36,906 nt of DNA from Planctomycetota bacterium (GCA_046582735.1 JAYGDV010000127.1:1-36906), one strand, 5' to 3'. Positions 2,237 through 28,659 are shown, counted from the stretch's first letter. Notes: generated by a model not told the origin, from the letters alone. Translations and numbers: made by a program.

Positions 2237-2275
2237 GCGCCGGCAGCGTGGCGGCAGGAGCGGAGAGGAAAAAAC

Positions 2276-2995
2276 GTGACCAGGTGGTGGATCCCGAGCT
2301 TGTTATGTCTTCTTCTTGCAGGCTGTTCCTCGGCCCCGGCGGTTCGCGTTTCTTCCGGGAGATTTCATTCTGAGGTCATCGGCCGCTCGGTTGAGGGTCG
2401 TGAGATTACCGCTGAGATTACAGGTGGCCGCGGGCCGGCATATCTCATCTTCGGGGTCATCCATGGTAACGAGCCGGCCGGAGAGCCGCTGCTTAGAACT
2501 CTTCTCGGCCACCTCAAGCTCCACCCGGAGCTTTATGCCGGCCATCGGCTGGTAGTGATCCCGGTACTGAATCCCGATGGCCTCCTCAAAAGGAGCCGCT
2601 ACAATTCCCGTGGAGTGGATCTGAACAGGAATTTCCCCGCGAAGAATTTCAAGAAGAGCAAGCGTAACGGCCCCTACCCTTCCAGCGAGCCCGAGACCAG
2701 GGCGCTGATGAAGATGATCCGCCAGTTCGGGCCAGCCAGGATTCTCGCGGTGCATGCTCCGCTGTTCTGTGTCAATTACGATGGGCCCGCCGTTGGTCTC
2801 GCGAGGTCGATGGCGCAGGCCAGTGGCTATCCTCTCAAGCCGTCGATTGGTTATCCGACTCCCGGCTCACTGGGCAGCTACGCCGGTGGTGACCTGCAGG
2901 TCCCCACGATCACCCTGGAGCTGCCGGCAAAGATTTCTCCCGGGAAAGCGTGGGCGGACCTGAGGCGCGCCATGGAGATCTTCGTCAGCGACTGA
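2276..2995 (+). CDS. M14-family zinc carboxypeptidase/amidase lipoprotein (MpaA-like murein peptide amidase)
   Basis: GTG start preceded by GGAGAGGAA. Lipobox LLLAGCSS. M14 motifs: GVIHGNEPAGEPLL (HxxE zinc ligands), LNPDG, VDLNRNFP, SEPETRAL, ILAVHAP. Confidence 0.85.
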   Translation: MTRWWIPSLLCLLLAGCSSAPAVRVSSGRFHSEVIGRSVEGREITAEITGGRGPAYLIFGVIHGNEPAGEPLLRTLLGHLKLHPELYAGHRLVVIPVLNPDGLLKRSRYNSRGVDLNRNFPAKNFKKSKRNGPYPSSEPETRALMKMIRQFGPARILAVHAPLFCVNYDGPAVGLARSMAQASGYPLKPSIGYPTPGSLGSYAGGDLQVPTITLELPAKISPGKAWADLRRAMEIFVSD

Positions 2996-3006: not shown

Positions 3007-5628
3007 TCAGTTATTTGCCACAACCGCCACCGCAGGCTGCGTGCCGTGACTGGCGGTCTCAAACGAGCTGGTCCATTTTTCCCAGTCCGCTTTCGCGGTA
3101 TTGACAGCCGCTTCCGCCCTGGCCGCTTCTGCCGTGGCCTGCTTGAGTTTGTCTCCCATGGCCTTCAGTGTAGCCAGCTCCTTGCCGAGTACGGATCTGA
3201 GCTCGGTGCCCCTGGCAGCAACGGCCTGTACCTGCCTGTTACTTTCCTCGAGGGCCTTGAGGGAGCTGGCGAGGGCGTCGGCAAGACTGCCGGAAGACTC
3301 CTTCAGGTCCGTAATCAGCTTGCCGGCCTGCTCGGGGTTGCTGAGTTCAAGAGTATCCGTGCCGGCGATGATCTCGGCGGCCTTGCTGGATGAGCCGACA
3401 GCTTTCTCGAGCAGGCTTTTCGCCACCGCCGCCGCGCTCTCTGCCGCTTTCCGTGTATCTTCCGCGCTGGCCTTGATCTGCCCCTGGAGGTTCTTGATCC
3501 GCAGTGCGGCTTCACGGGCGGCAAGCTTGTTTTCTTCGACAGCGACCAGGGTGGTGTTGTGTTCTTTGCGCCGCTGGGCAAGGACTTTCAGCGCCTTGTC
3601 AATCTCTATGGCGGCCTTCCACTTTCCTGAGCGGGCATTAGCCGCCTGGAGACGGGCATTGGCCTCGTCCAGTGCGCCCTTCTGGCTCGAGGCGGCCTCG
3701 CCGGCTGATTTCGCCTGCGCCGTCAGCTGGCTGAGGCGTGCCCGGGCTTTGCTCATCGTACCACTGGACTCATCCAGTGCGGCCTTGGAGACAGCTCTCT
3801 GTTCGAGAGCCCTCGACACCTCGGCGGCCAGCCCGGCGGCTTTTTTCTGTGCCGCCGCCAGCGCCTGGGCGCTTGCCGTGAGCTGGGCCTCATCCTTTTT
3901 CTCTGCCGCAGCAAGCTTTCCATGCTCTTCCTCCTGCCTGGCAAGTGTCGCCAGGGCCTCCTTGAGGCCGGTGGACGCATTGTCAGCCAACTCACGGTTT
4001 TTCTTCAGGTCACCGGCTGCTGCTGCCGAGGCCGCTTCCGCCGTTTTCGCGGTCCCCTCTGTCTTTTCGAGCTCGGCCTGCAGGTTGCGGACAGCGGTGA
4101 GCAGGCGGTTCTGCTCGGCTGCCAGCTTGCTGTGCTCAGCCTTGATTGCCACGAGGGCGGTCTCCGCTTCTTTTGAACGCTGGATGAGCGAGACGGGGTT
4201 CAGGGGGAGCAGGGCAATCCGTTTGCCGTCAGTAGCGCTCCACATTCGGACCTCGCCGTTCCAGTCGCCGGCGATAACCCGCTTACAGGTATGGTCGACC
4301 GCCACCCGCAGCGCGAGGTCACTGAAAGCCTCAAAGGCACGCTGCTGTTTTCCGTTCTGGTCCCAGAGCTTCGCCACCCGGTCCCGGCCGCAGCTCACCA
4401 GCTGGCCATTGCGATGAAATTGCATGGCCAGTGTTCCACCGCCGTGGGCATTCCAGCTGCGGATCTGGCGGCCATTCTCCATCTCCCAGAGACGGATGGT
4501 TGAATCCTCGCTGGCGCTGGCGAGGATGTTCGAGTCGCCCCTCCAGCTCACCGAGGTGACCGGGCCGCCATGGCCTTGCAGGGCCAGGTATTCCCGCCCG
4601 GTAAAAGACTCCCAGATATGGAGGCCGCCGTTGCGGTCTCCGGAGGCCAGCAGCACCCCATCGGGACTGAACTCGAGGGAGAAGATCCAGTTGGTGTGTT
4701 TCTTGATGTCGTGCAGCAGCTCCCCATCGCTGGTGGAATAGATTCTCAGCATCCTGCTGGAGCCGCCTATAGCCACCATGCTGTGGTCGCTGGAGATGTC
4801 GGCAGCGAGAACGGAGTCGTATTCATCGCCGATTTCAACGATTCTTTCTCCCGTACGGACGCTCCATACGACCACCTTGCCTGAATGGGCTCCGCGTCCG
4901 CCTCCGGCCAGCAGGAGCCCGGCGTTGCGGCTGAATTTCAGGATATGAGCAGTGCCTTCAGGAAACGGCAGCACCCCGGCCAGCTCGCTGGTCTCGGTAT
5001 TGTAGAGAAGCACCTGCTTTTGCCCAGCCACCGCCAGCAGGGGAGCCCAGGGGCTGCAGGCCATCGCCGTTACGGCGCTGGTCTGTTGTGTTCTCACCAC
5101 CGGCTCCAGGCTCAATCCCCTGGGCATTGGTGGCGGGCCTTCAGGCTTCGCAGTGGGCTCGCTTACTGACAGCTCGAGCCTGGGCTTTGCAGGTAGTTTG
5201 ATCTTGCTGCTCTTGTTCTCCGGCGCGCCTCCTGCGATCCATTTTCTGACGGTTTCCAGGATTCCGCCGGCGAGCTTACCGCCCTTCGGCGGCATGTGGG
5301 GCTCTTCGAGGTGGGAGATGAGAGCGAAGAGGCGGCTCGAGTCCGGCTCCCCGGGCTTGATCACCTTCCCGGAGCTGCCGCCCTCCATTGCCAGGCCGTA
5401 GGTGTTGAGAGCCAGGCCGCCTTTCTTGCGATCCTGGTTGTGGCATTTGGAACATTGCGAGCGGAAGATCTCGGAGATGTGGTCATCGTAGGTGATCCGT
5501 GCAGCCTTGGCTGCCGCCTCTTCACCTTCTGCCCGGGCATCGGCCGATGGCAACAGGAGCCCGGCCAGCACGAGGAGCAGGAGCGCGGCTTGAGTTTTTC
5601 CGCCGAGATGGGAGCTGCAGGGAGTCAT
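3007..5628 (-). CDS. exported PSCyt1 (planctomycete cytochrome c-like) - WD40 beta-propeller - long Ala-rich coiled-coil protein
   Basis: N-terminal signal ALLLLVLAGLLLPSADA. PSCyt1-type motif IFRSQCSKCHNQDRKKGGLAL with CxxCH. WD40-like blades: HTNWIFSLEFSPDGVLLASGDRNGGLHIWE and GHGGPVTSVSWRGDSNILASASEDSTIRLWE. The last ~390 aa are an A/K/E/L-rich heptad-like sequence. Start is 11 bp after the stop of the upstream gene. Confidence 0.9.
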   Translation of the reverse strand: MTPCSSHLGGKTQAALLLLVLAGLLLPSADARAEGEEAAAKAARITYDDHISEIFRSQCSKCHNQDRKKGGLALNTYGLAMEGGSSGKVIKPGEPDSSRLFALISHLEEPHMPPKGGKLAGGILETVRKWIAGGAPENKSSKIKLPAKPRLELSVSEPTAKPEGPPPMPRGLSLEPVVRTQQTSAVTAMACSPWAPLLAVAGQKQVLLYNTETSELAGVLPFPEGTAHILKFSRNAGLLLAGGGRGAHSGKVVVWSVRTGERIVEIGDEYDSVLAADISSDHSMVAIGGSSRMLRIYSTSDGELLHDIKKHTNWIFSLEFSPDGVLLASGDRNGGLHIWESFTGREYLALQGHGGPVTSVSWRGDSNILASASEDSTIRLWEMENGRQIRSWNAHGGGTLAMQFHRNGQLVSCGRDRVAKLWDQNGKQQRAFEAFSDLALRVAVDHTCKRVIAGDWNGEVRMWSATDGKRIALLPLNPVSLIQRSKEAETALVAIKAEHSKLAAEQNRLLTAVRNLQAELEKTEGTAKTAEAASAAAAGDLKKNRELADNASTGLKEALATLARQEEEHGKLAAAEKKDEAQLTASAQALAAAQKKAAGLAAEVSRALEQRAVSKAALDESSGTMSKARARLSQLTAQAKSAGEAASSQKGALDEANARLQAANARSGKWKAAIEIDKALKVLAQRRKEHNTTLVAVEENKLAAREAALRIKNLQGQIKASAEDTRKAAESAAAVAKSLLEKAVGSSSKAAEIIAGTDTLELSNPEQAGKLITDLKESSGSLADALASSLKALEESNRQVQAVAARGTELRSVLGKELATLKAMGDKLKQATAEAARAEAAVNTAKADWEKWTSSFETASHGTQPAVAVVANN

Positions 5629-5639
5629 GGTTCTGTTTT

Positions 5640-8081
5640 TCAGTGATTGAAGAGGAATTCCCGGGAGTTGAGCAGAGACCAGAAGAGGTCATCGAGAAAC
5701 TCTTTAGGGCTCGGGGCCGAGGCAAGGATCGCCTTCAGCCCCGCCAGCTCCTTTTCGACCGGCTTGCGCGAGAAGCAGCGGATGTAGAGCTCTTCGATGA
5801 TTTGTTCCGGGGTCTTTTTCGCATCGAGCATCCCCTTGATGAGACCGCCGGCGCTGATCTTTCGTTCAACGGTATCGCCATTGAGCAGGTGAAGCGCCTG
5901 CGACAGGTTGGGCTCCATCTGGACCTCGCAGGAGCATACGGTTTCGCGCTTGGCGCGGCCGAAGGCCTGCAGGAAATAGTTGGTGGTGGATCCATCTGCG
6001 ATCTGCACCGCCCGGGCCCCCTTTGGGAGACCGCGGAACTTGTTGCTCGTATTGGTTACCTGCGTGATGCAATCGAGGAGGATTTCAGAGCGGATCCTGC
6101 GAAGCGACGCATGCGAGAAATTGCGAGTGTCCGACTCGTTTGACTTGTTGGTCTGGGTGGCGAACTGGTAGGTTCTCGAGGTGCAGATGTCTCGAACCAG
6201 GCGCTTGAAGTCATATTTGTATTCCGTGAAGCGCCGCCCGAGCTCTCCGAGAAGCTCGGCATTGGCTGGAGGGTTGCTGACCCGGACATCATCGACCTCG
6301 TCAATGATTCCCTTGCCGAAGAAGTGCGCCCAGACCATGTTGGCAAGGTTGGTGGCGAAGAATGGGTTTTCGCTCGAGACCAGCCATTCGGCCATCGCCA
6401 CCCTCCGGTCTTTACCCTTCAGGTCCGGGGTCGTGCCACCGAGGAACTTGGGTTTCATGACCCTGTTGCCGACAGGGTGGCGCACCTCGCCGCCGCGGGA
6501 GTTGAAGACGATGGTCTCCCTGGGATCTTCGGCGCGTTTTCGGCCGATCTGGGAGAAGAACGAGGCGAAGCCGTAATAATCATTCTGGGTCCATCGATCG
6601 AATGGGTGGTTGTGACATTGGGCGCACTGGATCCGCATGCCCATGAACACCTGGGCTACGTTCTCTGTGACCTTCAGGGTGTTGGTCTCATTCTGGTAGT
6701 AATTGGTGGCCGGGTTTTTGAAGGTGCCGCCGCTGGCGCCAAGGAGTTCGCTGACCATCTTGTCCATAGGCACATTGTTGGCGATCTTCTCCTGCAGCCA
6801 GTTGTAGTAAAGCAGCATGGCTTTGTAGCTCACCTGCTGGGAGGACCGGATCTGCAGGAGCTCTGCCCACTTCATGACCCAGAGCTCCACGAATTCTTTC
6901 CTTCCAAGCAGTTCATCGACGAGCTTTGAGCGCTTGTCTTTTTCTTCGCTCGAACTGAAGCGTGCGTATTCCTCCGTAGTGGGCAGGAGGCCAATGATGT
7001 CGAGATACGCCCGCCTCAGGAAGACCTCGTCAGAGCAGAGCCCGGATGGGGCCACCCGCAGCTTCTGGAGCTTTTCCTTGATCAACTTGTCGACATAGTT
7101 GTTTTCCAATACCTGGGGAAATTCGAATTCGAGGTCCTTTGGAAGAACGATGAAATGGCTACCGACGGTGAAGGTGGCGAAGCGCGCCATGATGAAGGCT
7201 TCCCCCCTGGCTCCGGCGCTCACGAGACCTTCCTGGGAGACCTTCGCCGAGGTGTCATTGTTCGAAAGGAAGTAGGCGAGGCTGGTTACGTCCCGGGTGC
7301 TGCCGTCGGAATACGTTGCCCGTACCGTCAGCTTCTGGGTTGCCCCGCTGCCGTTGAGAACGGCATTGGGGGGATAGAACTCGATCCCGGTCGGGTGGGG
7401 GAGGTCCGCAGGGTCGCGCGGGGCCCTGGCCTCCAGCCAGCGCACAAGCGTTCCGTAGAGCTCGGAGTCCTTTTCAAATCGTTTTCCACCGGTATGGCTG
7501 ACCCTTCCGGCACTCTTTTCAAGGATGAGGCTGTCATGAACGAGCGCGAGGTTGAGCCGCCGGCCGTTGAGCTCCCGTGTCAGGCGGTGGTAGTCCCCAT
7601 CCGGGTCGAAACCGAAAAGGGACAGCCTGAAGCCGTCCTTGCCGCGGGCGGCGCCATGGCAGCTTCCGGTATTGCAGCCCACCTTCATGAAGACGGGCAT
7701 GACATCAAGCTTGAAGCTGATGGCCCTGTCGAGGGCGGCATCCTTGACCGTAATCGGCAGAGCGATGGATTTACCCTCGAGCTCGATTCGGAGCTCGGTG
7801 GTGCCATCTTTAACCGGTAGTACGCTGCCGCCTTCGAGTTTTGCCAGGGCCGGGTCGGCAAGGGTGTATTTCGCCTCGGAGGTAATGTCCCGGGTCAGGC
7901 CGTTTGAATAGAGAGCCTGGACAATCACCGACTGGCGGTCCCGCCGGGTGCTGAGCTCGATATCCCCGGGATAGGCAGTGATCTTCACCAGGTCGGCGGC
8001 GTCGATGGGCTCGCCGGGGCAGAGGATCCCTGTTAGAAAGGTGAGGACAGACAGCAATGGGAGATGTCTTGTTATTTTCAC
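5640..8081 (-). CDS. exported PSCyt2 (DUF1549) / PSD1 (DUF1553) domain protein with an N-terminal Ig-like segment
   Basis: Signal peptide LPLLSVLTFLTGIL. Ig-like stretch ITAYPGDIELSTRRDRQSVIVQALYSNGLTRDITSEAKYT. DUF1549 hallmark GCNTGSCHGAARGKDGFRLSLFGFDPDGDY. CAQCHNHPFDRWTQNDYYGFASFF (CxxCH). DUF1553-type C-terminus ending LLNSREFLFNH. Confidence 0.9.
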   Translation of the reverse strand: MKITRHLPLLSVLTFLTGILCPGEPIDAADLVKITAYPGDIELSTRRDRQSVIVQALYSNGLTRDITSEAKYTLADPALAKLEGGSVLPVKDGTTELRIELEGKSIALPITVKDAALDRAISFKLDVMPVFMKVGCNTGSCHGAARGKDGFRLSLFGFDPDGDYHRLTRELNGRRLNLALVHDSLILEKSAGRVSHTGGKRFEKDSELYGTLVRWLEARAPRDPADLPHPTGIEFYPPNAVLNGSGATQKLTVRATYSDGSTRDVTSLAYFLSNNDTSAKVSQEGLVSAGARGEAFIMARFATFTVGSHFIVLPKDLEFEFPQVLENNYVDKLIKEKLQKLRVAPSGLCSDEVFLRRAYLDIIGLLPTTEEYARFSSSEEKDKRSKLVDELLGRKEFVELWVMKWAELLQIRSSQQVSYKAMLLYYNWLQEKIANNVPMDKMVSELLGASGGTFKNPATNYYQNETNTLKVTENVAQVFMGMRIQCAQCHNHPFDRWTQNDYYGFASFFSQIGRKRAEDPRETIVFNSRGGEVRHPVGNRVMKPKFLGGTTPDLKGKDRRVAMAEWLVSSENPFFATNLANMVWAHFFGKGIIDEVDDVRVSNPPANAELLGELGRRFTEYKYDFKRLVRDICTSRTYQFATQTNKSNESDTRNFSHASLRRIRSEILLDCITQVTNTSNKFRGLPKGARAVQIADGSTTNYFLQAFGRAKRETVCSCEVQMEPNLSQALHLLNGDTVERKISAGGLIKGMLDAKKTPEQIIEELYIRCFSRKPVEKELAGLKAILASAPSPKEFLDDLFWSLLNSREFLFNH

Positions 8082-8096
8082 GATGTTACTGGGCCC

Positions 8097-10649
8097 TCAG
8101 GACCCTTCTTCTTTGTTCTTCTTGAATTGCAGGCGAAGCTTTTCCAGCCGGGTAAGGCGTTTCTTGGGCGGCGCCTTTGGAGGCGGCGGAGGTTTCGGTT
8201 TCTCGACCTTCTTGACCACCTTCGGCGGCGGTTTTTTCTTGGGTTTCGGCGGCGGCAGGGGCTTATCGATTCGCAGCTCGGTGCCGCCGGTGGAATGAAC
8301 GATGGACTCGCCGCTTTCAATGATTTCAACACGGCAGGCAATGGTTTTGTGTTTTCCCGCGGGGCTGTCCTTGGCGACTGTGACCTTGAAGGTAACCTCC
8401 TTGGTGTTTGCGTCGATTTCCATTCCCGGGGCCTTGACGTTATGTGGCAGTCCGAAGAGGCTCAGCCGGGCCTTGCCCTCGAATTTTGTACGCTGGTTGA
8501 TCTTGCAGTAGATCTCGGTGTCCTTGCCCTGCTCCGCCGAGGTTTTCTCTGCGGCAAGATCGATGTAGGGCTCCGCTACGCGGAGGGTGGCGAGCTGTGA
8601 GCTTGCCCAGATCCCGCCGCTGGAGCCGTTGACGGCAATCTTCCAGGCCCTCACCTGGGCTCCTCCGTTTGCATTCAGGCTGATGAAGGCTTCGAGCTTG
8701 TCCTTCGGGATATTGACGCCACGCTGCGAGGTGACTCCCGGAGGATTGAAGACCATCTGCAGTGCGATGGGGGCGGTGAAACCCTCCTTGCGTTCAACTA
8801 CGATCTTGAGAGCCATTGACCCGTTGCGAACGAGGGGCACCTTGGGCTCGATAATCTGCAGTTTGAAGGGCGCCTCCTCGGTAACCGCCACAGCCAGCCC
8901 TTTGAGGGTGTGCTTCAGGTATACCGACTGTCCGGGGTTGCCGACCAGGAGATCGATACCGATACGGAAACCGCCGCTGATGTTCTTTTTCTCATCAGCA
9001 TGCTTTGCGCGAACGTCACAGATTTTTCCAGACAGGGGGGCATCGGCGGCGGCCTCGAAGAGCACAGGGATGGTTGTCAGGTTCGCCGGCATGTTTTCAC
9101 CCTGGATGGCGATACCCGCGGGGAGATCGGCGCAGCTGAAGGCCAGGTCCCCGCCGAAGTTCTGCCTGCTGACGGAGACCAGGGCAGTGTAACGGTTCCC
9201 CCTGGGAACGGAGATCGACTGGCGCTCCTGGGAATACCTTCCTACCCGTGGGATCGTGAGGCTGAGGGCGGGCTTTACCGGTGTCAGCTCGAAGCGGTAT
9301 ACGTAATCCGGGCCGCCTTTTCCCAGGTGGTCTCGTACTGTCAGGACGTATTCCTTGGTCTCCGGGGCGGTGAAGCGGAAATAGCTGTCCGGCCCGCGCG
9401 AGTCGTCGTTTCCGGCGAGTCCTTTGCCGGAAAAGTGAGCGATGTTGATTACAGAGTCCAGCGGAGAGCGAATCCTGCGGCCGTAGAGCTCCACCTCGAA
9501 GACCTGGCCCTTGTTGGCTTTGAACCTGAAACAGTCGATGTCGCCGGGCTCGGAGATGATCCCGTTGAAGGCTCCGGGGGCGGTTGCGACAGTGGCCTTG
9601 GCGTGGTTGTTGTTGGGCTCGACCTCCAGTGTGTTTTCGTATTCGCTGAGTCGAAAAACATTCATCGAGGGGGACACCCCCCCCTCATCCTCGAGATGCA
9701 GTCCAAAGTCCTCACGGGCAGCCGGGGGAAGGGTAATCTTCTGTTTGCGGTCCCCACCTGCATCGCCGAGGTAGCTGATCTCGATTTCGGAACCTGCCTT
9801 TGCACCTGCGGGAAGCAGCCCCCTCGGGCGCGGAAAAGTTCCGACATGCAGGCGGTAGCGGCAGTTTCCGTTTCCTCCGTAGGAGCTCTCGCGAACCTGC
9901 ACATAGTAGCTTCCATCCTCGGGAGCGATCACCTGGCAGGTTGAGTCCTGGCGCAGCAGGGCGGAATCGTCTGAAGAGGCGATTTCGAAGCGGGCAGCAT
10001 TCATGATGGCGATATAGGGATCGAAGACCGTACTGCCCAGCCGCATCGCTTCGATCTCGGCGGAGATCCGCTGCCCTTTCTTTACCTCGAAAGTGTAGTA
10101 GTCGACATCCTCGCTCTGAACGATACCGTTTACGGTTGAATTGAGAGAGATTTTCTGTGGTGCGGCAAAGTCACTGTTGGGTTCCTTTTCGGCGACCTCC
10201 GCCAATGAGCCGACAAAGAAGGTCTTCATGTCGGAGATTCCGGTGGCGGTGCGCAGGCGCATTGCGTGGACGCCCAGGCGGCAGTCAGCAGCGATCTTGA
10301 CCCTGGCGAGGACATGCTTGGGATTGGTTACCTTGAATTCAACAAGGCTGAAGCCCGGAGAATAAAAGAGGATCTCCTTCACATCTGCCAGCCGGTCGCC
10401 GTTGAAGTTCACCTCCAGCTCGGTTCCACGCTGTCCTCCGCGGGGAATGATGGAGCCCAGTGATGGAGAGGCGGCCTGCAGGATGCCGGCGGTGAGCAGC
10501 AACAGGCAGGTGGCGCAAAACAACCGGGCGCTCAGCCACCGGGGTTTTCCAGTTCTTGTTTTACCGGGCAGGGGCATAAGAATACTTTCTGTTGACCTTG
10601 GATTCGTTCTTTCCTTGGCCAGGGGCCGATAAGGCGGCTCCCTGTGCAT
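8097..10649 (-). CDS. exported protein with two PPC (pre-peptidase C-terminal) domains, Ig-like/beta-rich middle region and a Lys/Pro-rich C-terminal tail
   Basis: Hydrophobic signal LFCATCLLLLTAGILQAAS. PPC-like blocks: EPNSDF...VNGIVQSEDVDYYTFEVKKGQRISAEIEA...DPYIAIMN...DDS...YYVQVRE, and EPNNNHAKAT...FNGIISEPGDIDCFRFKANKGQVFEVELY...NDDS...YVLTVRD. Tail: PLPPPKPKKKPPPKVVKKVEKPKPPPPPKAPPKK. An alternative start at 10577 (MPLPGKTR...) would remove a 24-aa N-terminal extension. Confidence 0.85.
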   Translation of the reverse strand: MHREPPYRPLAKERTNPRSTESILMPLPGKTRTGKPRWLSARLFCATCLLLLTAGILQAASPSLGSIIPRGGQRGTELEVNFNGDRLADVKEILFYSPGFSLVEFKVTNPKHVLARVKIAADCRLGVHAMRLRTATGISDMKTFFVGSLAEVAEKEPNSDFAAPQKISLNSTVNGIVQSEDVDYYTFEVKKGQRISAEIEAMRLGSTVFDPYIAIMNAARFEIASSDDSALLRQDSTCQVIAPEDGSYYVQVRESSYGGNGNCRYRLHVGTFPRPRGLLPAGAKAGSEIEISYLGDAGGDRKQKITLPPAAREDFGLHLEDEGGVSPSMNVFRLSEYENTLEVEPNNNHAKATVATAPGAFNGIISEPGDIDCFRFKANKGQVFEVELYGRRIRSPLDSVINIAHFSGKGLAGNDDSRGPDSYFRFTAPETKEYVLTVRDHLGKGGPDYVYRFELTPVKPALSLTIPRVGRYSQERQSISVPRGNRYTALVSVSRQNFGGDLAFSCADLPAGIAIQGENMPANLTTIPVLFEAAADAPLSGKICDVRAKHADEKKNISGGFRIGIDLLVGNPGQSVYLKHTLKGLAVAVTEEAPFKLQIIEPKVPLVRNGSMALKIVVERKEGFTAPIALQMVFNPPGVTSQRGVNIPKDKLEAFISLNANGGAQVRAWKIAVNGSSGGIWASSQLATLRVAEPYIDLAAEKTSAEQGKDTEIYCKINQRTKFEGKARLSLFGLPHNVKAPGMEIDANTKEVTFKVTVAKDSPAGKHKTIACRVEIIESGESIVHSTGGTELRIDKPLPPPKPKKKPPPKVVKKVEKPKPPPPPKAPPKKRLTRLEKLRLQFKKNKEEGS

Positions 10650-10695
10650 AAGAACCCTCTCATAGAAGAAAGAAGGGCTTTACCTCCGGCTCTCC

Positions 10696-11997
10696 TCAGG
10701 CGAGGAGCTCTTTGCGAACCTTGCCGCCATCGCAGATCTCTATGGGCCGATCACCCGGCGCCATGAGCTCCTTGTCGGCGACGATGCCCAACTGGTGGTA
10801 GATCGTGGTTGCCCAGTCAGCTACCGTCAGGGCATCTTCCTCGGGCTCGGTGGCTGTCGCATCGGACTTTCCGTAGATGAACCCTTTCTTGATTCCTCCA
10901 CCAGCCAGGACGATGCTGAACACCTTGGGCCAGTGATCCCTTCCCGCGTTTCCATTAATCTTGGGAGTGCGCCCGAATTCCGTCGTCACCACGACGAGGG
11001 TCGAGTCGAGCAGTCCCCGTGTTTCCAGGTCCCTGATCAACCTGGCGAAGGCCTGGTCGAAGGGGGGCATCTGGCCTCTCATGGAATTCCGAATATTGTT
11101 GTGCATGTCCCAGCCCCCGTAGGTCAGGGTGACAAAACGCACCCCTGCTTCGACCAGTCTCCTGGCCAGCAGGAGTCTCTGCCCGGCAGCGTTGCGGCCG
11201 TATTCGTCACGGAGCTTGGCGGGCTCGGCGTTGATGTTGAAGGCCTCCTTGGCCTCCTTGGAGCTGATGAGGCCATAGGCCCTCTGGTAGAAGGTGTCCA
11301 TGGCCTCGAGGCCGTCGGATTTTTCTGTTTCCTTGAAGTGGGAGTTGACCGTCTCGAGGATCGAGCGCCGTCGGTTGAAGCGCTCCGATTTGATCCCGCC
11401 GGCAAGATTGAGATCACGGACCTTGAAGCTGCCGCTGGCCGGATCGCTGCCGAGGCTGAAGGGCGCATAGGACGAGCTCAGGTAGCCGGATCCTGCGAAG
11501 GTATTGGGTTGTCCCGGTATACAGACATAGGGCGGCAGGCTCTTGCGTGGGCCGAACTCGTGTGAAACGATGCTTCCCATGCTGGGGAATACGAGTGCCG
11601 GGCTCGGACGGTAGCCGGTGAACATATTGTGCGTGCCCCGTTCGTGCGCCGCCTCTCCGTGGCTCATAGATCGCACAACGGTGATCTTGTCGGCCACCTG
11701 GGCAGTTTGTTTCATGACCTCGCCGTAGCGCACGCCAGGCAGCTTGGTGCCGATATTGCCCAGCTCGCCGCGGTAGGCCAGGGGGGCATAGGGCTTGGGA
11801 TCAAAGGTGTCCTGGTGCGCCATCCCGCCGGGCATGAAGATGTTGATGACCGACTTGGCGGGGCCTTCCTTGCTTTCGTAAAACTTCTGATCGGCGTTGG
11901 CGGACTTGATGCGGAAGTACTGGTCCAGGGTAAGACCGAGGCCACCGATGGCGCCGACCGTGAGGAAATCACGCCGGCTTGATTTATTGATCTTCAT
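10696..11997 (-). CDS. DUF1501 family protein (sulfatase/alkaline-phosphatase-fold) with a twin-arginine export signal
   Basis: MKINKSSRRDFLTVGAIGGLGL matches the Tat consensus S-R-R-x-F-L. The body is DUF1501-like: FMPGGMAHQDTFDPKP, GWDMH, TTEFGRTPKIN...GRDHWP. Confidence 0.9.
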   Translation of the reverse strand: MKINKSSRRDFLTVGAIGGLGLTLDQYFRIKSANADQKFYESKEGPAKSVINIFMPGGMAHQDTFDPKPYAPLAYRGELGNIGTKLPGVRYGEVMKQTAQVADKITVVRSMSHGEAAHERGTHNMFTGYRPSPALVFPSMGSIVSHEFGPRKSLPPYVCIPGQPNTFAGSGYLSSSYAPFSLGSDPASGSFKVRDLNLAGGIKSERFNRRRSILETVNSHFKETEKSDGLEAMDTFYQRAYGLISSKEAKEAFNINAEPAKLRDEYGRNAAGQRLLLARRLVEAGVRFVTLTYGGWDMHNNIRNSMRGQMPPFDQAFARLIRDLETRGLLDSTLVVVTTEFGRTPKINGNAGRDHWPKVFSIVLAGGGIKKGFIYGKSDATATEPEEDALTVADWATTIYHQLGIVADKELMAPGDRPIEICDGGKVRKELLA

Positions 11998-25433: not shown

Positions 25434-25480
25434 TGAAAAAAGAGAGGCGAAGCCCGCGGGCTTCGCCTCTCTTTTAAATT
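25434..25480. terminator. bidirectional intrinsic terminator between convergent genes
   Basis: A perfect 14-bp GC-rich stem, AGAGAGGCGAAGCC-cgcg-GGCTTCGCCTCTCT (25441-25472). It is flanked by an A-run (GAAAAAA) on the left and T-rich TTTAAATT on the right. Confidence 0.8.
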
Positions 25481-25498: not shown

Positions 25499-26383
25499 TT
25501 ACTTCTCCTCCTCCTTGGAGTTGCCGTACTTGCCGGGCATTCCGAAATTGTATTTGTAACGCTTGATGCCGAGCTTGGTGAACTCATGGGCATCGAACTT
25601 TTCGAAAGGAACAAAGGGACGGGCCGCCATGCGTTCATGAACGACCTGGTCGACGAGCTTGACGCCACCTTTGACAAAACCCTTGCTGCCACGGGTGAAG
25701 TCCGAGGTGTTGTTCTTGACGTACTTGACATCAAAACCCTGCAATTGGGCGCCTTCGACGAGGCCGTAGTTATGGCCATGGGCTTTCTGCAGGTGCATGT
25801 CGAGGAACTTCTCGTTGCGGTCCGCATTGGAGAGTCTCTTGGTGCGGGCGAGCATGCCGAGCTTGACGGCGAATCCTGCCTGCGTGTAGAAATCCTGGGG
25901 ACTCCAGTAGCCGGGCAGGCAGTGTACGACACGGGCATCGGGCGTCATGAAGTACATCTGTATGTTACGACCGCCGGAGCAGGTGTTGATGTTCTTGGCA
26001 GCGTAAGAAGGCATGTGGGTATTGGATACGCCAGCATAGCTTTTCCTACCCTTGATATTCTGCCAACCGGAGACGAATGCGGTGTTGAGCTGGCTAATGA
26101 CTTTGTCGTTAGAGAGCGTCACGGCTCTCAGGGAATGGCCAGCACTTCACAATCCGCCGTCGATATCACCAACGATATCGACCCAGAAGATCATCTTATT
26201 CTCGGCCTGGGCTTTTTTCTTAAGAGCGTTGAAGTCTTTGCTCCAGTTGATCTTCGACATCATTTTGTCGACGTTCTGTTTTACCTGGGGGCCGGTAACT
26301 GTTTTATAGGCGACATTCTGGGCATGGAGAGCGCCAGTTGTCAGCAATACCGCAAGGGTCACTACGGTCAGTTTCTTCAGCAT
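25499..26383 (-). CDS. exported thioredoxin-fold (Thioredoxin_7/DUF255-like) protein with an in-frame TGA at 26147-26149: candidate selenoprotein (alternatively a nonsense pseudogene)
   Basis: ORFs 26147..26383 and 25499..26122 are in the same frame, separated only by TGA plus 8 sense codons. AAAGGAG Shine-Dalgarno 7 nt before ATG 26383. Signal peptide MLKKLTVVTLAVLLTTGALHA. The stretch INWSKDFNALKKKAQAENKMIFWVDIVGDIDGGL-[TGA]-SAGHSLRAVTLSNDKVISQLNTAFVSGWQNI mirrors the I.W...........K..L.DF...WC.WC......F....V...L...FV.. layout. The TGA falls at the first Cys position. Confidence 0.6.
26089..26146 (-). promoter_or_regulatory. candidate bacterial SECIS-like stem-loop immediately 3' of the in-frame UGA
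   Basis: The mRNA reads UGA-N17-GAGAGC-CGUGAC-GCUCUC (26129-26112): a 6-bp stem with a 6-nt loop containing GU. This is enclosed by an outer helix, GCUGGC (26143-26138) with GCCAGC (26094-26089). Hand-folded only. Confidence 0.35.
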
Positions 26384-26449
26384 TTCAAAGCTCCTTTCAA
26401 AAGGTTCCTGAAAAGTATAGAGAAGAGTTAGGGTCTGAAAAAGTGATGG

Positions 26450-26479
26450 ATACTACGACACTTTAGCACGAGATATCAA
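26450..26479 (-). promoter_or_regulatory. candidate promoter for the thioredoxin-fold gene
   Basis: On the minus strand: TTGATA (26479-26474), an 18-nt spacer, then TAGTAT (26455-26450), about 65 nt upstream of the ATG. It overlaps a 9-bp inverted repeat, CGACACTTT/AAAGTGTCG. Confidence 0.25.
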
Positions 26480-26505
26480 AAGTGTCGAGAAAAACACCAG
26501 AACTT

Positions 26506-28659
26506 TCAATTTGTTGCACTGTCATTGTTTTCTTTCCACCAGGCTTCCCAGACCTTTTTATTGTCTCCGAGATTTACTCCGGTGATGGATGCAAGTGCCG
26601 TTTTTACAAGGCCTTTCAGCTCCTGGTCAGGACTTGAGAGGCTTTTGATCAAAGCGGGTACTGCCTGCAAGGCATTTCCTTTTGAGAAAGAACCGACCAT
26701 TTTCCGCTTCATGTCGGTGTCTCTGCTCCTTGAGTAAACACCGGTGAGGTGTTTTGTCGATTCTGCCGAGGTGAGTTGGGCAAAACCGTTTCCCAGCGCC
26801 TGCTGGAAGGCTTCCAACCGCCTTTTCTGGCTTTTCTTGATTTCGATCTTCTTTTCAGAGAGTTCCAGAACACGTTGGAGTTGCTCGAGATAGTGATTGT
26901 GCCGGTTGCCGTAATAGCTGGCGGCACCTGATTTGTATTTGTCCTTGTTGATCTTGTAGGCATTGGCCATCAGGGCATCGATGCGTCGCTTCAGGAAGGA
27001 AGTCGTTTTCTCCATCTTGGCGCGAAGCTCACTGGAGTAGAGGTAGACCGTCACCAGTCCCCTCGCCCCGTCATCTCCCGTTGCCCTCAGGAGCTCGGTG
27101 AGGTCCGGATCGAGGTCGCCCGGGGAGGCGATCGGTAAGCCGTAGTTGCCAACGGTCTCCTTAAGCCGCTCGATCAGGTCGGCGTAGTCTTTTTTTGACA
27201 GCTCGACTATTTGCGGGATCCTGGCGACTGCGGTTTTTCGGGTGTCCTCATCGTCCTCCACGTGGAGAATCCGGTTGCCGCTGTTGCTCATCACCGCTGT
27301 CCGCCGTGCGATCGAGGCCTCGATCTTTGACGTGTCCGTCCCGCCGGTAAGGCCACCCTGGATCTGGTTACGTTTCTTGATCAGGGAGGCGATCATAGCC
27401 CTTGTTTCGGTGATCTCCTGGCTGTCACCCCCCGAGGAAGGAAGTATCGGTTCTTCGGAGCGCGGAGCGGTCGTGATCTCATCGGAAGGAGCCGATGGAT
27501 CCGTGTTCTGTCCGCCGGCAATGGCTTTCCGCCCTCGCGGAGCCCGGCTGGATGTCTCCAGCGCAGCAAGCATCCGCTGTAATTTTTCAATCTTGCTGTT
27601 GGTTTCGCCCAATTGGCCCTGCAGAGCCTTTTCCCGCTCAGACATCTGGCGGTGGGAAGTATTCGCCTGTTGGGCTTCGATGGCAACGCGCTGGAGGTCG
27701 TTGTCGTCCCTCATACTTTTGAAGACGCCTGATACCACGACGAGCAGCACAACAAGGGTTACAGCACCGATCGCGAGGGGCACGGCGGGGCTTCCGCTGG
27801 GTTTTTTCGGAATGACGGTCTTGGCGACCTTGCTGGATTTGGCGGTGCTTTTCTTGGGCTTGATGCGCTTCTTGATCTTCTTTTTTGGTTTTTCCGATTC
27901 AGCCGGAGCAGGATTGAAGACAACAGGCTGCTGCGCTGCACCGGGAGCACCCGGATTGTAATTCTGTGGTGGTTGCTGCTGAGCGGGGGGTATGTACTGT
28001 GGCGGATATGCTCCGGGCTGCTGCTGCGGCTGCGGCTGCGGCTGCTGCTGCTGCGGCGGCGGCTGCTGCTGCTGCGGCTGCTGCTGCGGCGGGTATCCCT
28101 GCTGAGCGGGATACGGTTGTCCTGGATATGGTTGAGCAGGATATGGCTGGTTGGGATCTTGCGGAGCGGGGTAGGGCTGGCCCTGGGGCGGTGGCATTTG
28201 CGCTGCGGGTTGCTGCGGCCAGGGCTCCTGGGGGAGATTGGGATCAGGTATCGGGGCCTGGGGCTTCTCAATAGGCACCGCCCCTCGTACAGTGGGGATA
28301 TCGCTTTGCTGGGAAGCTGAGGTGGTGGCCGCGCCGAGTCCTGAGCAGCCCCGGTAGACGATCTCGAGGCGTCCAAGGAAGAGAACATCCTGGTCTCGCA
28401 GGATTCTGCCATTGGCTCCCTTGGTACTTTCTTTCCCGTGCCGGCGGAGCCGGGTTGCATTGCTGGTTCCTGCATCAAAAACCACCACCCGGTCACCATC
28501 GCGCTCAATCCGGCAATGGACTCTGGAGACGCTTTTTTCACGCAATTGCAATTCATTGCTGCGTGCACGCCCCAGGTGGGTTTCTCCCTCCGGCAGCGAA
28601 AAGGTTCTTTCTCCCTTTTCTTCCGGGATGATCAGTTGGTGAGCGTTGCCGGTTTCCAT
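26506..28659 (-). CDS. FHA-domain membrane protein: FHA, P/Q/Y-rich low-complexity region, basic block, TM helix, coiled coil, C-terminal HEAT-like repeats
   Basis: FHA motif THLGRARSNELQLREKSVSRVHCRIERDGDRVVVFDAGTSNATRL. Low-complexity region QPYPAPQDPNQPYPAQPYPGQPYPAQQGYPPQQQPQQQQPPPQQQQPQPQPQQQP. TM helix AVPLAIGAVTLVVLLVVVSGVF. C-terminus ALQAVPALIKSLSSPDQELKGLVKTALASITG...VWEAWWKEN. Confidence 0.85.
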   Translation of the reverse strand: METGNAHQLIIPEEKGERTFSLPEGETHLGRARSNELQLREKSVSRVHCRIERDGDRVVVFDAGTSNATRLRRHGKESTKGANGRILRDQDVLFLGRLEIVYRGCSGLGAATTSASQQSDIPTVRGAVPIEKPQAPIPDPNLPQEPWPQQPAAQMPPPQGQPYPAPQDPNQPYPAQPYPGQPYPAQQGYPPQQQPQQQQPPPQQQQPQPQPQQQPGAYPPQYIPPAQQQPPQNYNPGAPGAAQQPVVFNPAPAESEKPKKKIKKRIKPKKSTAKSSKVAKTVIPKKPSGSPAVPLAIGAVTLVVLLVVVSGVFKSMRDDNDLQRVAIEAQQANTSHRQMSEREKALQGQLGETNSKIEKLQRMLAALETSSRAPRGRKAIAGGQNTDPSAPSDEITTAPRSEEPILPSSGGDSQEITETRAMIASLIKKRNQIQGGLTGGTDTSKIEASIARRTAVMSNSGNRILHVEDDEDTRKTAVARIPQIVELSKKDYADLIERLKETVGNYGLPIASPGDLDPDLTELLRATGDDGARGLVTVYLYSSELRAKMEKTTSFLKRRIDALMANAYKINKDKYKSGAASYYGNRHNHYLEQLQRVLELSEKKIEIKKSQKRRLEAFQQALGNGFAQLTSAESTKHLTGVYSRSRDTDMKRKMVGSFSKGNALQAVPALIKSLSSPDQELKGLVKTALASITGVNLGDNKKVWEAWWKENNDSATN
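28015..28092. repeat. imperfect trinucleotide repeat (CTG/CGG on + strand, CAG/CCG on the coding strand) encoding the poly-Q/P tract
   Basis: gggctgctgctgcggctgcggctgcggctgctgctgctgcggcggcggctgctgctgctgcggctgctgctgcggcgg is read directly from the sequence. It is followed (28093-28200) by degenerate ~18-nt units encoding QPYPxQ. Confidence 0.9.

What the first reader, a model, noticed from the sequence alone, without database searches (positions are those of the whole stretch)
25499..26383. In-frame TGA at the active-site Cys position of an exported thioredoxin-fold protein: candidate new selenoprotein (U-x-x-G motif)
**Frame.** The 78-aa and 207-aa minus-strand ORFs are one 294-codon frame interrupted only by TGA (26149-26147).

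**N-terminal part.** It carries a signal peptide and the exact lead-in of Thioredoxin_7/DUF255-type proteins: INW..DF..ALKKAQAENKMIFWVDIVG.

**TGA position.** The TGA sits where those proteins have the first, nucleophilic Cys of W-C-x-x-C. The sequence continues in frame with the expected helix and strand: -SAGHSLRAVTLSNDKVISQLNTAFVSGWQNI, then NIQMYFMTPDARVVHCLPGY.

**Motif.** The second Cys of the motif is Gly, giving U-S-A-G. A possible resolving Cys lies in NINTCSGG.

**Hairpin.** A hairpin, GAGAGC-CGUGAC-GCUCUC, starts 18 nt after the UGA. It has GU in its loop and lies inside an outer GCUGGC/GCCAGC helix, which is compatible with a bacterial SECIS.

**Genetic code.** TGA is a genuine stop for several other genes here, so global recoding is excluded.
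Basis: partly seen in the sequence, partly recalled or inferred. Interest (0 to 1): 0.75.

Follow-up and report, generated by a model that had tools for sequence, protein, structure and literature searches.

The report
New exported thioredoxin-fold selenoprotein family
The "stop" codon inside this planctomycete gene is almost certainly read as selenocysteine, the 21st amino acid, which makes the gene a member of a widespread exported redox-protein family that current selenoprotein inventories do not list and that databases record only as truncated hypothetical proteins.

Summary
Window 26383..25499 (- strand) is one 294-codon frame interrupted only by TGA at 26149-26147.

**Evidence for selenocysteine**
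- Every relative with upstream DNA in 80 loci from Planctomycetota, Obscuribacterales and Bryobacterales has TGA at this column (77/77 distinct sequences, never TAA or TAG).
- The frame stays open on both sides, and Ser codons just after the TGA switch between AGY and TCN, so that stretch is translated.
- The hairpin GAGAGC-CGUGNC-GCUCUC, 17 nt after the UGA, fits the bacterial SECIS consensus. Synonymous variation collapses only there (GCC 69/69, GUG 72/72).
- Natural controls agree. Cys homologues (TGC) lack the canonical hairpin. A Ser variant (TCA) keeps the peptide LRAVSLS with other codons and no hairpin.
- An AlphaFold model (pLDDT 85) places Sec at the CxxC position of a thioredoxin fold, ahead of an unmatched helical domain.
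- 72 of 73 members have an export signal.

**Novelty and limits**
- Nothing matches in Pfam, NCBIfam or the 119-family inventory of 2026.
- selA/B/C/D could not be tested. Four planctomycete contigs do carry a second Sec-TGA gene (Prx-like, DUF1223).

Verdict: a real, apparently undescribed selenoprotein family of unknown substrate.

The parts
25499..26383 (-). Complete selenoprotein gene: 294 sense codons (Sec at codon 79) plus the TAA stop
   Evidence: Single frame. The read-through ORF is conserved in 73 full-length relatives.
26391..26395 (-). Shine-Dalgarno-like AGGAG, 7 nt upstream of the ATG at 26383
   Evidence: Read from the sequence. No comparable site with proper spacing precedes the GTG at 26122.
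26414..26488 (-). Three overlapping sigma-70-like promoter matches in the 122-nt gap after the FHA gene
   Evidence: 4 sites found in the scanned region against 0.9 expected. These are consensus matches only.
26321..26383 (-). N-terminal signal peptide (MLKKLTVVTLAVLLTTGALHA|QN), no twin-arginine motif
   Evidence: Read from the sequence. A hydrophobic N-terminal segment is present in 72 of 73 family members. The cleavage site is inferred.
26147..26149 (-). In-frame TGA = Sec79, first residue of the U-S-A-G motif
   Evidence: TGA in 77 of 77 distinct relatives. TGC in the Cys homologues. N-cap of helix alpha-1 in the model.
26112..26129 (-). SECIS-like hairpin: stem 26129-26124 and 26117-26112, apical loop CGUGAC 26123-26118
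   Evidence: -9.3 kcal/mol, z = -3.75. Present in all relatives. Synonymous-codon entropy is 0.38, 0, 0 and 0.14 at codons 86, 87, 88 and 90, against 0.7-1.0 elsewhere. Lost in the Cys and Ser variants.
25874..26266 (-). Thioredoxin-fold domain (about residues 40-170), with conserved C155 and the LPGYW loop at 25921-25904
   Evidence: AF2 model of homologue P0046. Foldseek matches to DsbH/DUF255, AGR2/3, DsbD-gamma and Trx. Boundaries are approximate, transferred from the homologue.
25502..25873 (-). C-terminal helical domain (about residues 171-294) with invariant QGFD and D-x3-HER-x3-RPF motifs; no known relative
   Evidence: pLDDT mostly 88-98 through about residue 290 in the model, but no structural or sequence match. 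Conservation.
25436..25475 (-). Intrinsic terminator: 17-bp GC-rich stem plus a U-run, between this gene and the convergent SDR gene
   Evidence: -33.2 kcal/mol, z = -7.8. The simple terminator scan did not report it.

Best explanation
The locus is one gene for an exported, thioredoxin-fold selenoprotein.

**Translation.** When the ribosome reaches UGA-79, the hairpin 17 nt downstream (26129-26112) acts as a bacterial SECIS. It presents G-U in its apical loop and recruits SelB with Sec-tRNA(Sec). Selenocysteine is inserted, and translation continues to TAA, giving a 294-aa precursor.

**Export and fold.** The N-terminal signal peptide directs export to the periplasm. In the mature protein, Sec sits at the N-cap of helix alpha-1, straight after beta-1. 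That is the position of the nucleophilic Cys of a CxxC motif, but here the motif is U-S-A-G with no second Cys.

**Chemistry.** Sec most likely acts as a lone selenolate nucleophile or redox centre, in a pocket lined by invariant R86, N140, Q142 and W160. It would be recycled through a selenenylsulfide with C155, or with C105/C135, or with an external thiol. A family-specific helical domain probably forms the substrate site.

**Shown:** the conserved TGA, translation across it, the SECIS-type RNA constraint, the Sec/Cys pairing, the fold and the export signal.

**Inferred:** SelB dependence, the redox chemistry, the partner Cys and the substrate.
For: 1. All 34 database homologues are truncated right after the TGA column.
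2. In 80 loci from genomes, the column is TGA in 77 of 77 distinct sequences. ORFs stay open for 72-162 codons upstream (apart from two loci cut at the contig end and one mis-set start) and 206-325 codons downstream.
3. The eight codons between the TGA and the next possible start are translated. Ser80 and Ser84 use both AGY and TCN codons, and Leu85 uses both CUG and UUG.
4. RNA-level constraint is confined to the hairpin. R86 is AGR only, A87 is GCC in 69/69, V88 is GUG in 72/72 and L90 is CUC in 67/72. Other conserved columns show normalised codon entropy of 0.7-1.0, and other Arg columns use CGN freely.
5. The hairpin fits the bSECIS consensus: G followed by U at loop positions 2-3, and 23 nt from the UGA to the loop, within the 16-37 nt range (PMC13188914).
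6. Two variant hairpins (GGGA-CGUG-UCCC; GAGGGC-CGUGA-GCCUCUC with a bulged U) still present GUG in the loop.
7. Natural controls: the Cys forms are TGC with CGC Arg (Lys AAG in P0059) and no GUG loop. The Ser form is TCA, with the same peptide LRAVSLS encoded by CGG-GCU-GUU-UCU-CUU and no hairpin (-0.1 kcal/mol). The 'Trp' forms are really TGA.
8. Fold: AF2 pLDDT 85.4, pTM 0.81. The Sec column lies between beta-1 and alpha-1. The top Foldseek hits are all Trx-fold proteins.
9. TGA is the normal stop here, in 18 of 23 long ORFs.
10. Four planctomycete contigs that carry the family also carry another gene with TGA at the first Cys of a CxxC: AhpC/TSA in L009 and L031 (E = 6e-32 and 5e-25, confirmed by Pfam), a homologue in L061 grouped with them by BLASTP only, and DUF1223 in L013 (E = 2e-46).
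11. Some Planctomycetes have complete Sec machinery (PMC4807772).
Against: - No selA, selB, selD or tRNA-Sec could be shown for this genome or for any carrier. None is present in the window or in the 1.3 Mb of held DNA, and whole genomes could not be searched.
- The core stem is so conserved that it shows only G-C to G-U changes, with no compensatory double changes in the same register.
- The invariant GUG at codon 88 could in principle be a start codon, and gene callers use it as one.
- TGA is the dominant stop in this genome, so 'always TGA' is less striking within the window's own clade alone.
- Thioredoxin-family HMM scores are below the curated cut-offs.
- The Cys homologues lack C155 and C105, so the proposed selenenylsulfide partner is not universal.
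Confidence: 0.87

Rival explanations
1. Read-through without selenocysteine. The hairpin stimulates near-cognate or suppressor decoding of UGA as Trp, Cys or Gly, giving a full-length protein that is not a selenoprotein.
For: Sec machinery was not demonstrated for any carrier. Downstream hairpins can promote stop-codon read-through in general (established knowledge). Some pipelines already translated the codon as Trp.
Against: Natural full-length homologues have Cys, the chemical analogue of Sec, at this column, and never Trp or Gly from a sense codon. The hairpin meets the specific bSECIS loop and spacing rules. The position is the catalytic one of a Trx fold. The same contigs carry TGA at the catalytic Cys of known selenoprotein-type genes. 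The 'Trp' forms are artefacts of the translation table used.
Confidence: 0.06
2. Two separate products. Translation stops at TGA, giving a 78-aa exported peptide, and re-initiates at the conserved GTG (26122) to make a 207-aa cytoplasmic protein. The conserved sequence would then be a coupling signal.
For: GTG at codon 88 is invariant (72/72), and a purine-rich GAGAG lies just upstream. All gene callers chose this start.
Against: The codons between TGA and GTG are conserved as amino acids through AGY/TCN Ser switches and CUG/UUG Leu changes, and they always stay in frame. GAGAG ends only 3 nt before the GTG. The two halves form one compact Trx domain with pLDDT of 84-98 across the junction. 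The 207-aa part would lack beta-1, the active site and the signal peptide. The Cys and Ser homologues are continuous ORFs. In the Ser form, GUG becomes GUU.
Confidence: 0.04
3. Pseudogene: a thioredoxin-like gene inactivated by a nonsense mutation.
For: An in-frame stop splits the ORF. One relative (L013) also appears frameshifted upstream of the TGA.
Against: The same stop, and only that stop, is kept across three phyla, with saturated synonymous sites and strong amino-acid conservation on both sides. 453 clusters at 50% identity share the family. Several genomes hold two paralogues, each with the TGA.
Confidence: 0.01

Closest known systems
Thioredoxin_7 / DUF255 (Thioredox_DsbH) class of thioredoxin-fold proteins, including DsbH, the DsbD gamma domain and AGR2/AGR3
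   Same: They share the N-terminal helix, beta-1 and active-site-at-alpha-1 architecture. They are the best Foldseek matches (7tkv, 3ph9, 3f9u, 2ju5, 1vrs; probability 0.9-1.0). Many are exported or periplasmic. AGR2/3 also have a single nucleophile (CxxS).
   Different: HMM scores fall below the family cut-offs (18 bits against 27). The beta-1 to alpha-1 loop is about 4-5 residues longer. The motif is U-S-A-G rather than CxxC or CxxS. The nucleophile is Sec. The usual alpha-2 is replaced by a long conserved loop (…G-x-x-N-x-Q). A conserved helical domain of about 120 residues follows.
VPGUxxT family thioredoxin-like (seleno)proteins (NCBIfam NF041382/NF041383; 'OS_HP5')
   Same: They are Trx-like selenoproteins of similar length (287-349 aa) with Sec near the N-terminus of the fold. 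The Cys form P0059 gives a faint hit to the first 60 profile positions (E = 0.005).
   Different: The score is 16 bits against a 275-bit cut-off. The window protein gives no hit at all. The motif VPGUxxT is absent (here DGG-L/T-U-SAG). It is not a member.
Single-Sec Trx-fold selenoenzymes without a CxxC partner: GPx-like (UxxT), arsenate reductase (UxxS), Prx-like family protein (UxxS)
   Same: A lone Sec sits at the N-cap of alpha-1 of a thioredoxin fold with no Cys three residues downstream. Conserved Asn, Gln and Trp residues are reminiscent of the GPx tetrad (a resemblance only).
   Different: There is no sequence or structural match to GPx, Prx or ArsC. The geometry of N140, Q142 and W160 relative to Sec was not measured.
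Bacterial SECIS elements (E. coli fdhF type; bSECISearch consensus)
   Same: It is a stem-loop in the coding region directly after the Sec-UGA. G followed by U occupies loop positions 2-3. The distance of 23 nt from the UGA to the loop is within the 16-37 nt range.
   Different: The stem is short (6 bp), with no supported lower or outer helix. The sequence is almost identical across three phyla, whereas bSECIS elements of different genes usually differ; the Prx-like gene on L009 has a different hairpin.

Membership tests
Bacterial selenoprotein gene (Sec-UGA plus bSECIS) | In-frame UGA conserved in orthologues, with the ORF open on both sides | tested here: met
   TGA in 77 of 77 distinct sequences. 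ORFs run 72-162 codons upstream (apart from two loci cut at the contig end and one mis-set start) and 206-325 downstream, with no other stops.
Bacterial selenoprotein gene (Sec-UGA plus bSECIS) | Cys-containing homologues aligned to the UGA (Sec/Cys pair) | tested here: met
   P0059, P0101 and P0102 have Cys, encoded by TGC, at the column.
Bacterial selenoprotein gene (Sec-UGA plus bSECIS) | Stem-loop immediately downstream: G (often followed by G or U) in the first two loop positions, 16-37 nt from the UGA to the apical loop | tested here: met
   The loop is C-G-U-G-N-C, 23 nt from the UGA. Criteria are from PMC13188914.
Bacterial selenoprotein gene (Sec-UGA plus bSECIS) | Selection on the RNA element beyond coding needs, lost when the UGA is lost | tested here: met
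   Codon entropy is 0 to 0.38 only at codons 86-90. The Ser (TCA) and Cys (TGC) variants lack the hairpin.
Bacterial selenoprotein gene (Sec-UGA plus bSECIS) | selA, selB, selC (tRNA-Sec) and selD in the same genome | not testable with these tools
Indirect support: other Sec-TGA genes on four planctomycete contigs, and Sec machinery is known in some Planctomycetes.
Bacterial selenoprotein gene (Sec-UGA plus bSECIS) | Selenium physically incorporated (75Se labelling or mass spectrometry) | not testable with these tools
   This needs an experiment.
Thioredoxin fold | Beta-alpha-beta…beta-beta-alpha topology with the active residue at the N-terminus of alpha-1 | tested here: met
   AF2 model of P0046: beta-1 72-78, Sec column 87, helix 88-97. 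All top Foldseek hits are Trx-fold proteins.
Pfam Thioredoxin_7 (PF13899) / Thioredox_DsbH (PF03190) | Score at or above the Pfam gathering threshold | tested here: not met
   PF03190 scores 18.1 bits against 27 for the window protein. PF13899 scores at most 23.5 bits against 27 for the Cys forms.
Pfam Thioredoxin_7 (PF13899) / Thioredox_DsbH (PF03190) | CxxC (or CxxS) active-site motif | tested here: not met
   The motif is U-S-A-G, with S80 and A81 at 100% and G82 at 92%.
VPGUxxT thioredoxin-like selenoprotein (NF041382/NF041383) | NCBIfam model cut-off and the VPGUxxT motif | tested here: not met
   No hit for the window protein at E <= 10. P0059 scores 16.4 bits against 275. The motif is absent.
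Any of the 119 listed prokaryotic selenoprotein families (PMC13188914, Table 1) | Match to the listed Pfam, NCBIfam or TIGRFAM model, or to the listed Sec motif | tested here: not met
   The table was read in full. Its UxxG entries are ArsM and rhodanese. Pfam and NCBIfam scans of seven family members gave no qualifying hit.

The most novel reading that the evidence does not exclude
This is a nearly obligate-Sec, exported enzyme family with a new active-site architecture: a lone Sec in U-S-A-G, an invariant Arg, Asn, Gln and Trp, and a novel helical domain. It would perform periplasmic chemistry that Cys handles poorly. It would have spread by horizontal transfer, together with an almost unchanged SECIS hairpin, among Planctomycetota, Acidobacteriota and the non-photosynthetic cyanobacterial sister lineage Obscuribacterales. 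That would imply Sec decoding in a lineage where it has not been reported, and SelB recognition that works across phyla.
Probability: 0.35. Interest if true: 0.78.

Novelty: new member of a known kind. Interest (0 to 1): 0.66.

Why it matters
- **Annotation.** Every public copy seen here is annotated as a truncated 'hypothetical protein', or read with TGA as Trp. Hundreds of genes in marine, groundwater and soil Planctomycetota and in Obscuribacterales are therefore mis-called, and an entire selenoprotein family is missing from current inventories (119 families) and from NCBIfam and Pfam.
- **Sec over Cys.** The family is unusual in being overwhelmingly Sec rather than Cys. It is also exported, and it is common in oxic marine waters. 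This bears on the open question of why, and where, selenocysteine is preferred over cysteine.
- **A ready-made test system.** The hairpin is nearly identical across phyla, and there are natural Ser and Cys 'revertants' without it. Together these give a clean system for testing the determinants of bacterial SECIS recognition.
- **A marker for selenium use.** If carriers in Obscuribacterales prove to have Sec machinery, the gene becomes a marker for selenium use in that lineage.

Tried and rejected
- **Rfam.** The gathering-threshold scan of the window gave no hits.
- **PDB by sequence.** A profile search with E up to 10 gave no hits, so no residue-level alignment to a solved Trx protein was possible.
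- **Structure of the window's own protein.** Homologue P0046 was modelled instead. Coordinates were not returned, so Sec-to-Cys distances could not be measured.
- **Extended or outer SECIS helix.** It is not conserved: the whole-structure covariation score of 0.144 was reached by 31 of 500 shuffles, and the key pair is unpaired in 21 of 35 sequences. RNAalifold kept only 4 bp of the core stem and found no compensatory changes.
- **Function from gene neighbourhood.** No neighbour is conserved across clades. Only planctomycete clades share an upstream FHA-domain gene.
- **Sec machinery.** ARAGORN found 98 tRNAs in the loci and none in the window; none is tRNA-Sec. tblastn with E. coli SelA, SelB and SelD recalled from memory found nothing.
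- **Literature.** No paper links Obscuribacter with selenocysteine. The BSepDB supplement is not held. The ISME J 2016 survey does not mention these phyla.
- **GPx- or Prx-like identity.** Considered and rejected, because there is no sequence or structural match.

Full report
**1. Observation.**
On the minus strand, 26383..25499 translates as one frame of 294 sense codons. The only interruption is TGA at 26149-26147, and the frame ends in TAA. The gene has:
- a Shine-Dalgarno-like AGGAG 7 nt before the ATG;
- a typical signal peptide, MLKKLTVVTLAVLLTTGALHA|QN;
- a strong intrinsic terminator after the stop (-33.2 kcal/mol, z = -7.8).

The hairpin GAGAGC-CGUGAC-GCUCUC lies at 26129-26112 (-9.3 kcal/mol, z = -3.75). 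TGA ends 18 of the 23 long ORFs in the window, so the code is not reassigned. The window is planctomycete: it encodes PSCyt1, PSCyt2, PSD1 and DUF1501 proteins. It contains no tRNA, no Rfam match and no Sec-machinery gene.

**2. Homologues are all cut at the same place.**
A search with the read-through sequence found 34 proteins. All cover only the C-terminal 44-70% of the query, and nearly all start at M/V-TLS…, just after the TGA column. A scan of one genome per GTDB species found 168 related stretches, and the best 80 loci were fetched. They come from Planctomycetota, Obscuribacterales/Melainabacteria and Bryobacterales, plus a few MAGs labelled otherwise.

Translating upstream in frame shows that every locus with upstream DNA has a stop at exactly this column, within D-G-G-[LT]-*-S-A-G-[HN]-S-L-R-A-V-[TS]-L-S. 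The codon is TGA in 77 of 77 distinct sequences. There is no other stop for 72-162 codons upstream (apart from two loci cut at the contig end and one mis-set start) or 206-325 codons downstream. One locus, L013, looks frameshifted upstream. Several genomes hold two paralogues, each with the TGA.

**3. The region after the TGA is translated, and it carries an RNA signal.**
A codon alignment of 73 full-length genes shows normalised synonymous-codon entropy of about 0.7-1.0 at conserved residues throughout the gene, on both sides of the TGA.

Directly after the TGA:
- Ser80 uses AGT, AGC and TCN codons;
- Ser84 uses TCN and AGY codons;
- Leu85 uses CUG and UUG.

This is selection on the amino acid, in frame, with no start codon in between. 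Ribosomes must therefore read through the TGA.

Entropy collapses only at the hairpin codons:
- R86 is AGA or AGG in 72 of 73, whereas other Arg columns use CGN freely;
- A87 is GCC in 69 of 69;
- V88 is GUG in 72 of 72;
- L90 is CUC in 67 of 72.

The third position of the very next codon is fully free.

The hairpin has G-U at loop positions 2-3 and lies 23 nt from the UGA. This meets the published bSECIS consensus: a G, often followed by G or U, in the first two loop positions, and 16-37 nt between the UGA and the loop (PMC13188914). Two minority variants re-pair differently but still present GUG in the loop. In the canonical register the stem varies only by G-C to G-U changes, so there is no classical compensatory proof. 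The outer helix is not supported.

**4. Natural controls.**
An exhaustive profile search of 1.84 billion representative proteins found 453 clusters. Most of the best 150 begin at residue 1-5, which means they are truncated. The few with N-terminal extensions are informative:

| Variant | Codon at the column | Downstream region |
|---|---|---|
| P0059, P0101, P0102 | TGC (Cys) | CGC Arg (Lys AAG in P0059) and no GUG loop; P0059 keeps a decayed remnant |
| P0046, P0065 ('Trp') | TGA in the DNA (checked for P0046) | intact hairpin in P0046; an artefact of the translation table |
| P0085 | TCA (Ser) | same peptide LRAVSLS, encoded CGG-GCU-GUU-UCU-CUU; no hairpin (-0.1 kcal/mol) |

The special codon usage is therefore maintained only where the TGA is present. 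That is the behaviour expected of a SECIS.

**5. Protein.**
- **Sequence families.** Pfam gives only sub-threshold hits: DUF255 at E = 2.7e-3, and Thioredoxin_7 at down to 6e-5 for the Cys forms. NCBIfam gives nothing, apart from a 16-bit hit of P0059 to the VPGUxxT selenoprotein model, whose cut-off is 275 bits.
- **Fold.** An AF2 model of P0046, built with a 46-sequence alignment, is confident (pLDDT 85.4, pTM 0.81). The Sec column follows beta-1 (72-78) and immediately precedes helix 88-97. The Foldseek top hits are DsbH/DUF255 (7tkv, 2ju5), AGR3/AGR2, 3f9u, DsbD-gamma and thioredoxins. They have probability 0.9-1.0 but weak E-values, and they cover only about 130-227 alignment columns, at most roughly two-thirds of the 332-residue model. 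The helical C-terminal half has no match.
- **Conserved residues.** At 97% or more: W47, A58, W67, G72, U79, S80, A81, R86, I110, G118, S120, H123, G137, N140, Q142, C155, L156, P157, G158, W160, Q215, F217, D218, D245, H249, R251, R255, F263, D264, G272 and Y276.
- **Cysteines.** C155 is present in 72 of 73 sequences. C105 and C135 are complementary: all 9 sequences that lack C105, including the window's, have C135. The Cys forms lack these cysteines.
- **Export.** 72 of 73 sequences have a hydrophobic N-terminal segment.

**6. Sec decoding in carrier genomes.**
No tRNA-Sec or selA/B/D lies in the held DNA, and whole genomes could not be scanned. A screen for other conserved in-frame TGAs did find further examples on the same contigs as family members:
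- L009 and L031: membrane-anchored AhpC/TSA proteins with W-U-P-F/L-C. The Pfam match spans the TGA (E = 6e-32 and 5e-25). This is the known Prx-like UxxC selenoprotein family. A third gene, in L061, was grouped with them by BLASTP spanning the TGA but was not checked by Pfam.
- L013: a DUF1223 protein with TSQG-U-HSC, directly downstream of the family member (E = 2e-46).

Some Planctomycetes are known to have complete Sec machinery (PMC4807772). No equivalent evidence was obtained for the window's own contig or for Obscuribacterales.

**7. Comparison and novelty.**
The May 2026 inventory of 119 prokaryotic selenoprotein families (PMC13188914, read in full) has no matching entry. Its UxxG families are arsenite methyltransferases and rhodaneses. 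Its Trx7/PDZ family is CxxU and has an NCBIfam model that these proteins do not hit. BSepDB compiles the same reported families. Public names are all 'hypothetical protein', attached to truncated sequences.

The mechanism of Sec insertion is the standard bacterial one and the fold is a known one. This is therefore a new family of a known kind. Its distinctive features are the U-S-A-G motif, the novel C-terminal domain, export, strong predominance of Sec over Cys, and a SECIS that is almost identical across three phyla. Some uncertainty remains, because older metagenome surveys may have listed it under a name that is not in the inventory.

**8. Verdict.**
The confidence that this is a real Sec-encoding gene is about 0.87. 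The biochemical role (a lone selenolate redox centre, with C155, C105/C135 or an external thiol as the resolving partner) is inferred and remains open.

Noticed in passing
L009 7544-7546 (- strand); L031 3709-3711 (+ strand); also L061: Membrane-anchored AhpC/TSA (Prx-like) genes with an in-frame TGA at the first Cys of W-U-P-F/L-C. They lie 2.4 kb and 6.3 kb from the family member on the same planctomycete contigs, and belong to the known Prx-like UxxC selenoprotein family. The L061 member was grouped by BLASTP only.
   Followed up: partly
L013 about 1856-2608 (+ strand), TGA at 1964-1966: A DUF1223 (PF06764, E = 1.9e-46) gene with an in-frame TGA at the first Cys of its CxxC (TSQG-U-HSC) and a strong downstream hairpin. 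It sits immediately after the family member. A Sec form of DUF1223 is not in the 119-family inventory. This is a single instance.
   Followed up: partly
window 26506-28659 (- strand); loci L001-L013 and L017-L030: An FHA-domain protein (in the window's clade with a Pro/Gln-rich linker and a TM segment) lies directly upstream on the same strand in both planctomycete clades, but not in Obscuribacterales. This may be a clade-specific functional link.
   Followed up: partly
L084 6001-7137 (P0085): A natural Ser (TCA) variant of the Sec column keeps the surrounding peptide but has lost the hairpin. It may be an inactive or repurposed paralogue.
   Followed up: partly
L017-L030, L033, L066 (C-terminal tails): One marine planctomycete clade (15 of 73 sequences) has a conserved vicinal-Cys motif, GDGCCD, in the C-terminal tail. 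Other members (P0012, P0019) end in Cys/His-rich tails. These may be metal-binding or redox-relay sites.
   Followed up: no
P0035, P0065 (protein hits): Some members carry an internal duplication of the beta-3/beta-4 'HxLxGxW' module plus helical segment (two to four matched stretches).
   Followed up: no
window 25586-26431 (+ strand): A 281-aa antisense ORF overlaps the whole gene, and similar antisense ORFs recur in 61 loci. This is a shadow ORF of a GC-rich gene, not a gene.
   Followed up: partly
L013 upstream of 1136: The family member in L013 loses the family's N-terminal sequence about 10 codons before the TGA. This is a probable frameshift, from either an assembly error or decay.
   Followed up: no
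window 3007-11997 (- strand): A run of planctomycete hallmark genes: PSCyt1 with a WD40 propeller, PSCyt2/PSD1 (DUF1549/DUF1553), a PPC-domain protein and DUF1501. This fixes the window's phylum.
   Followed up: partly
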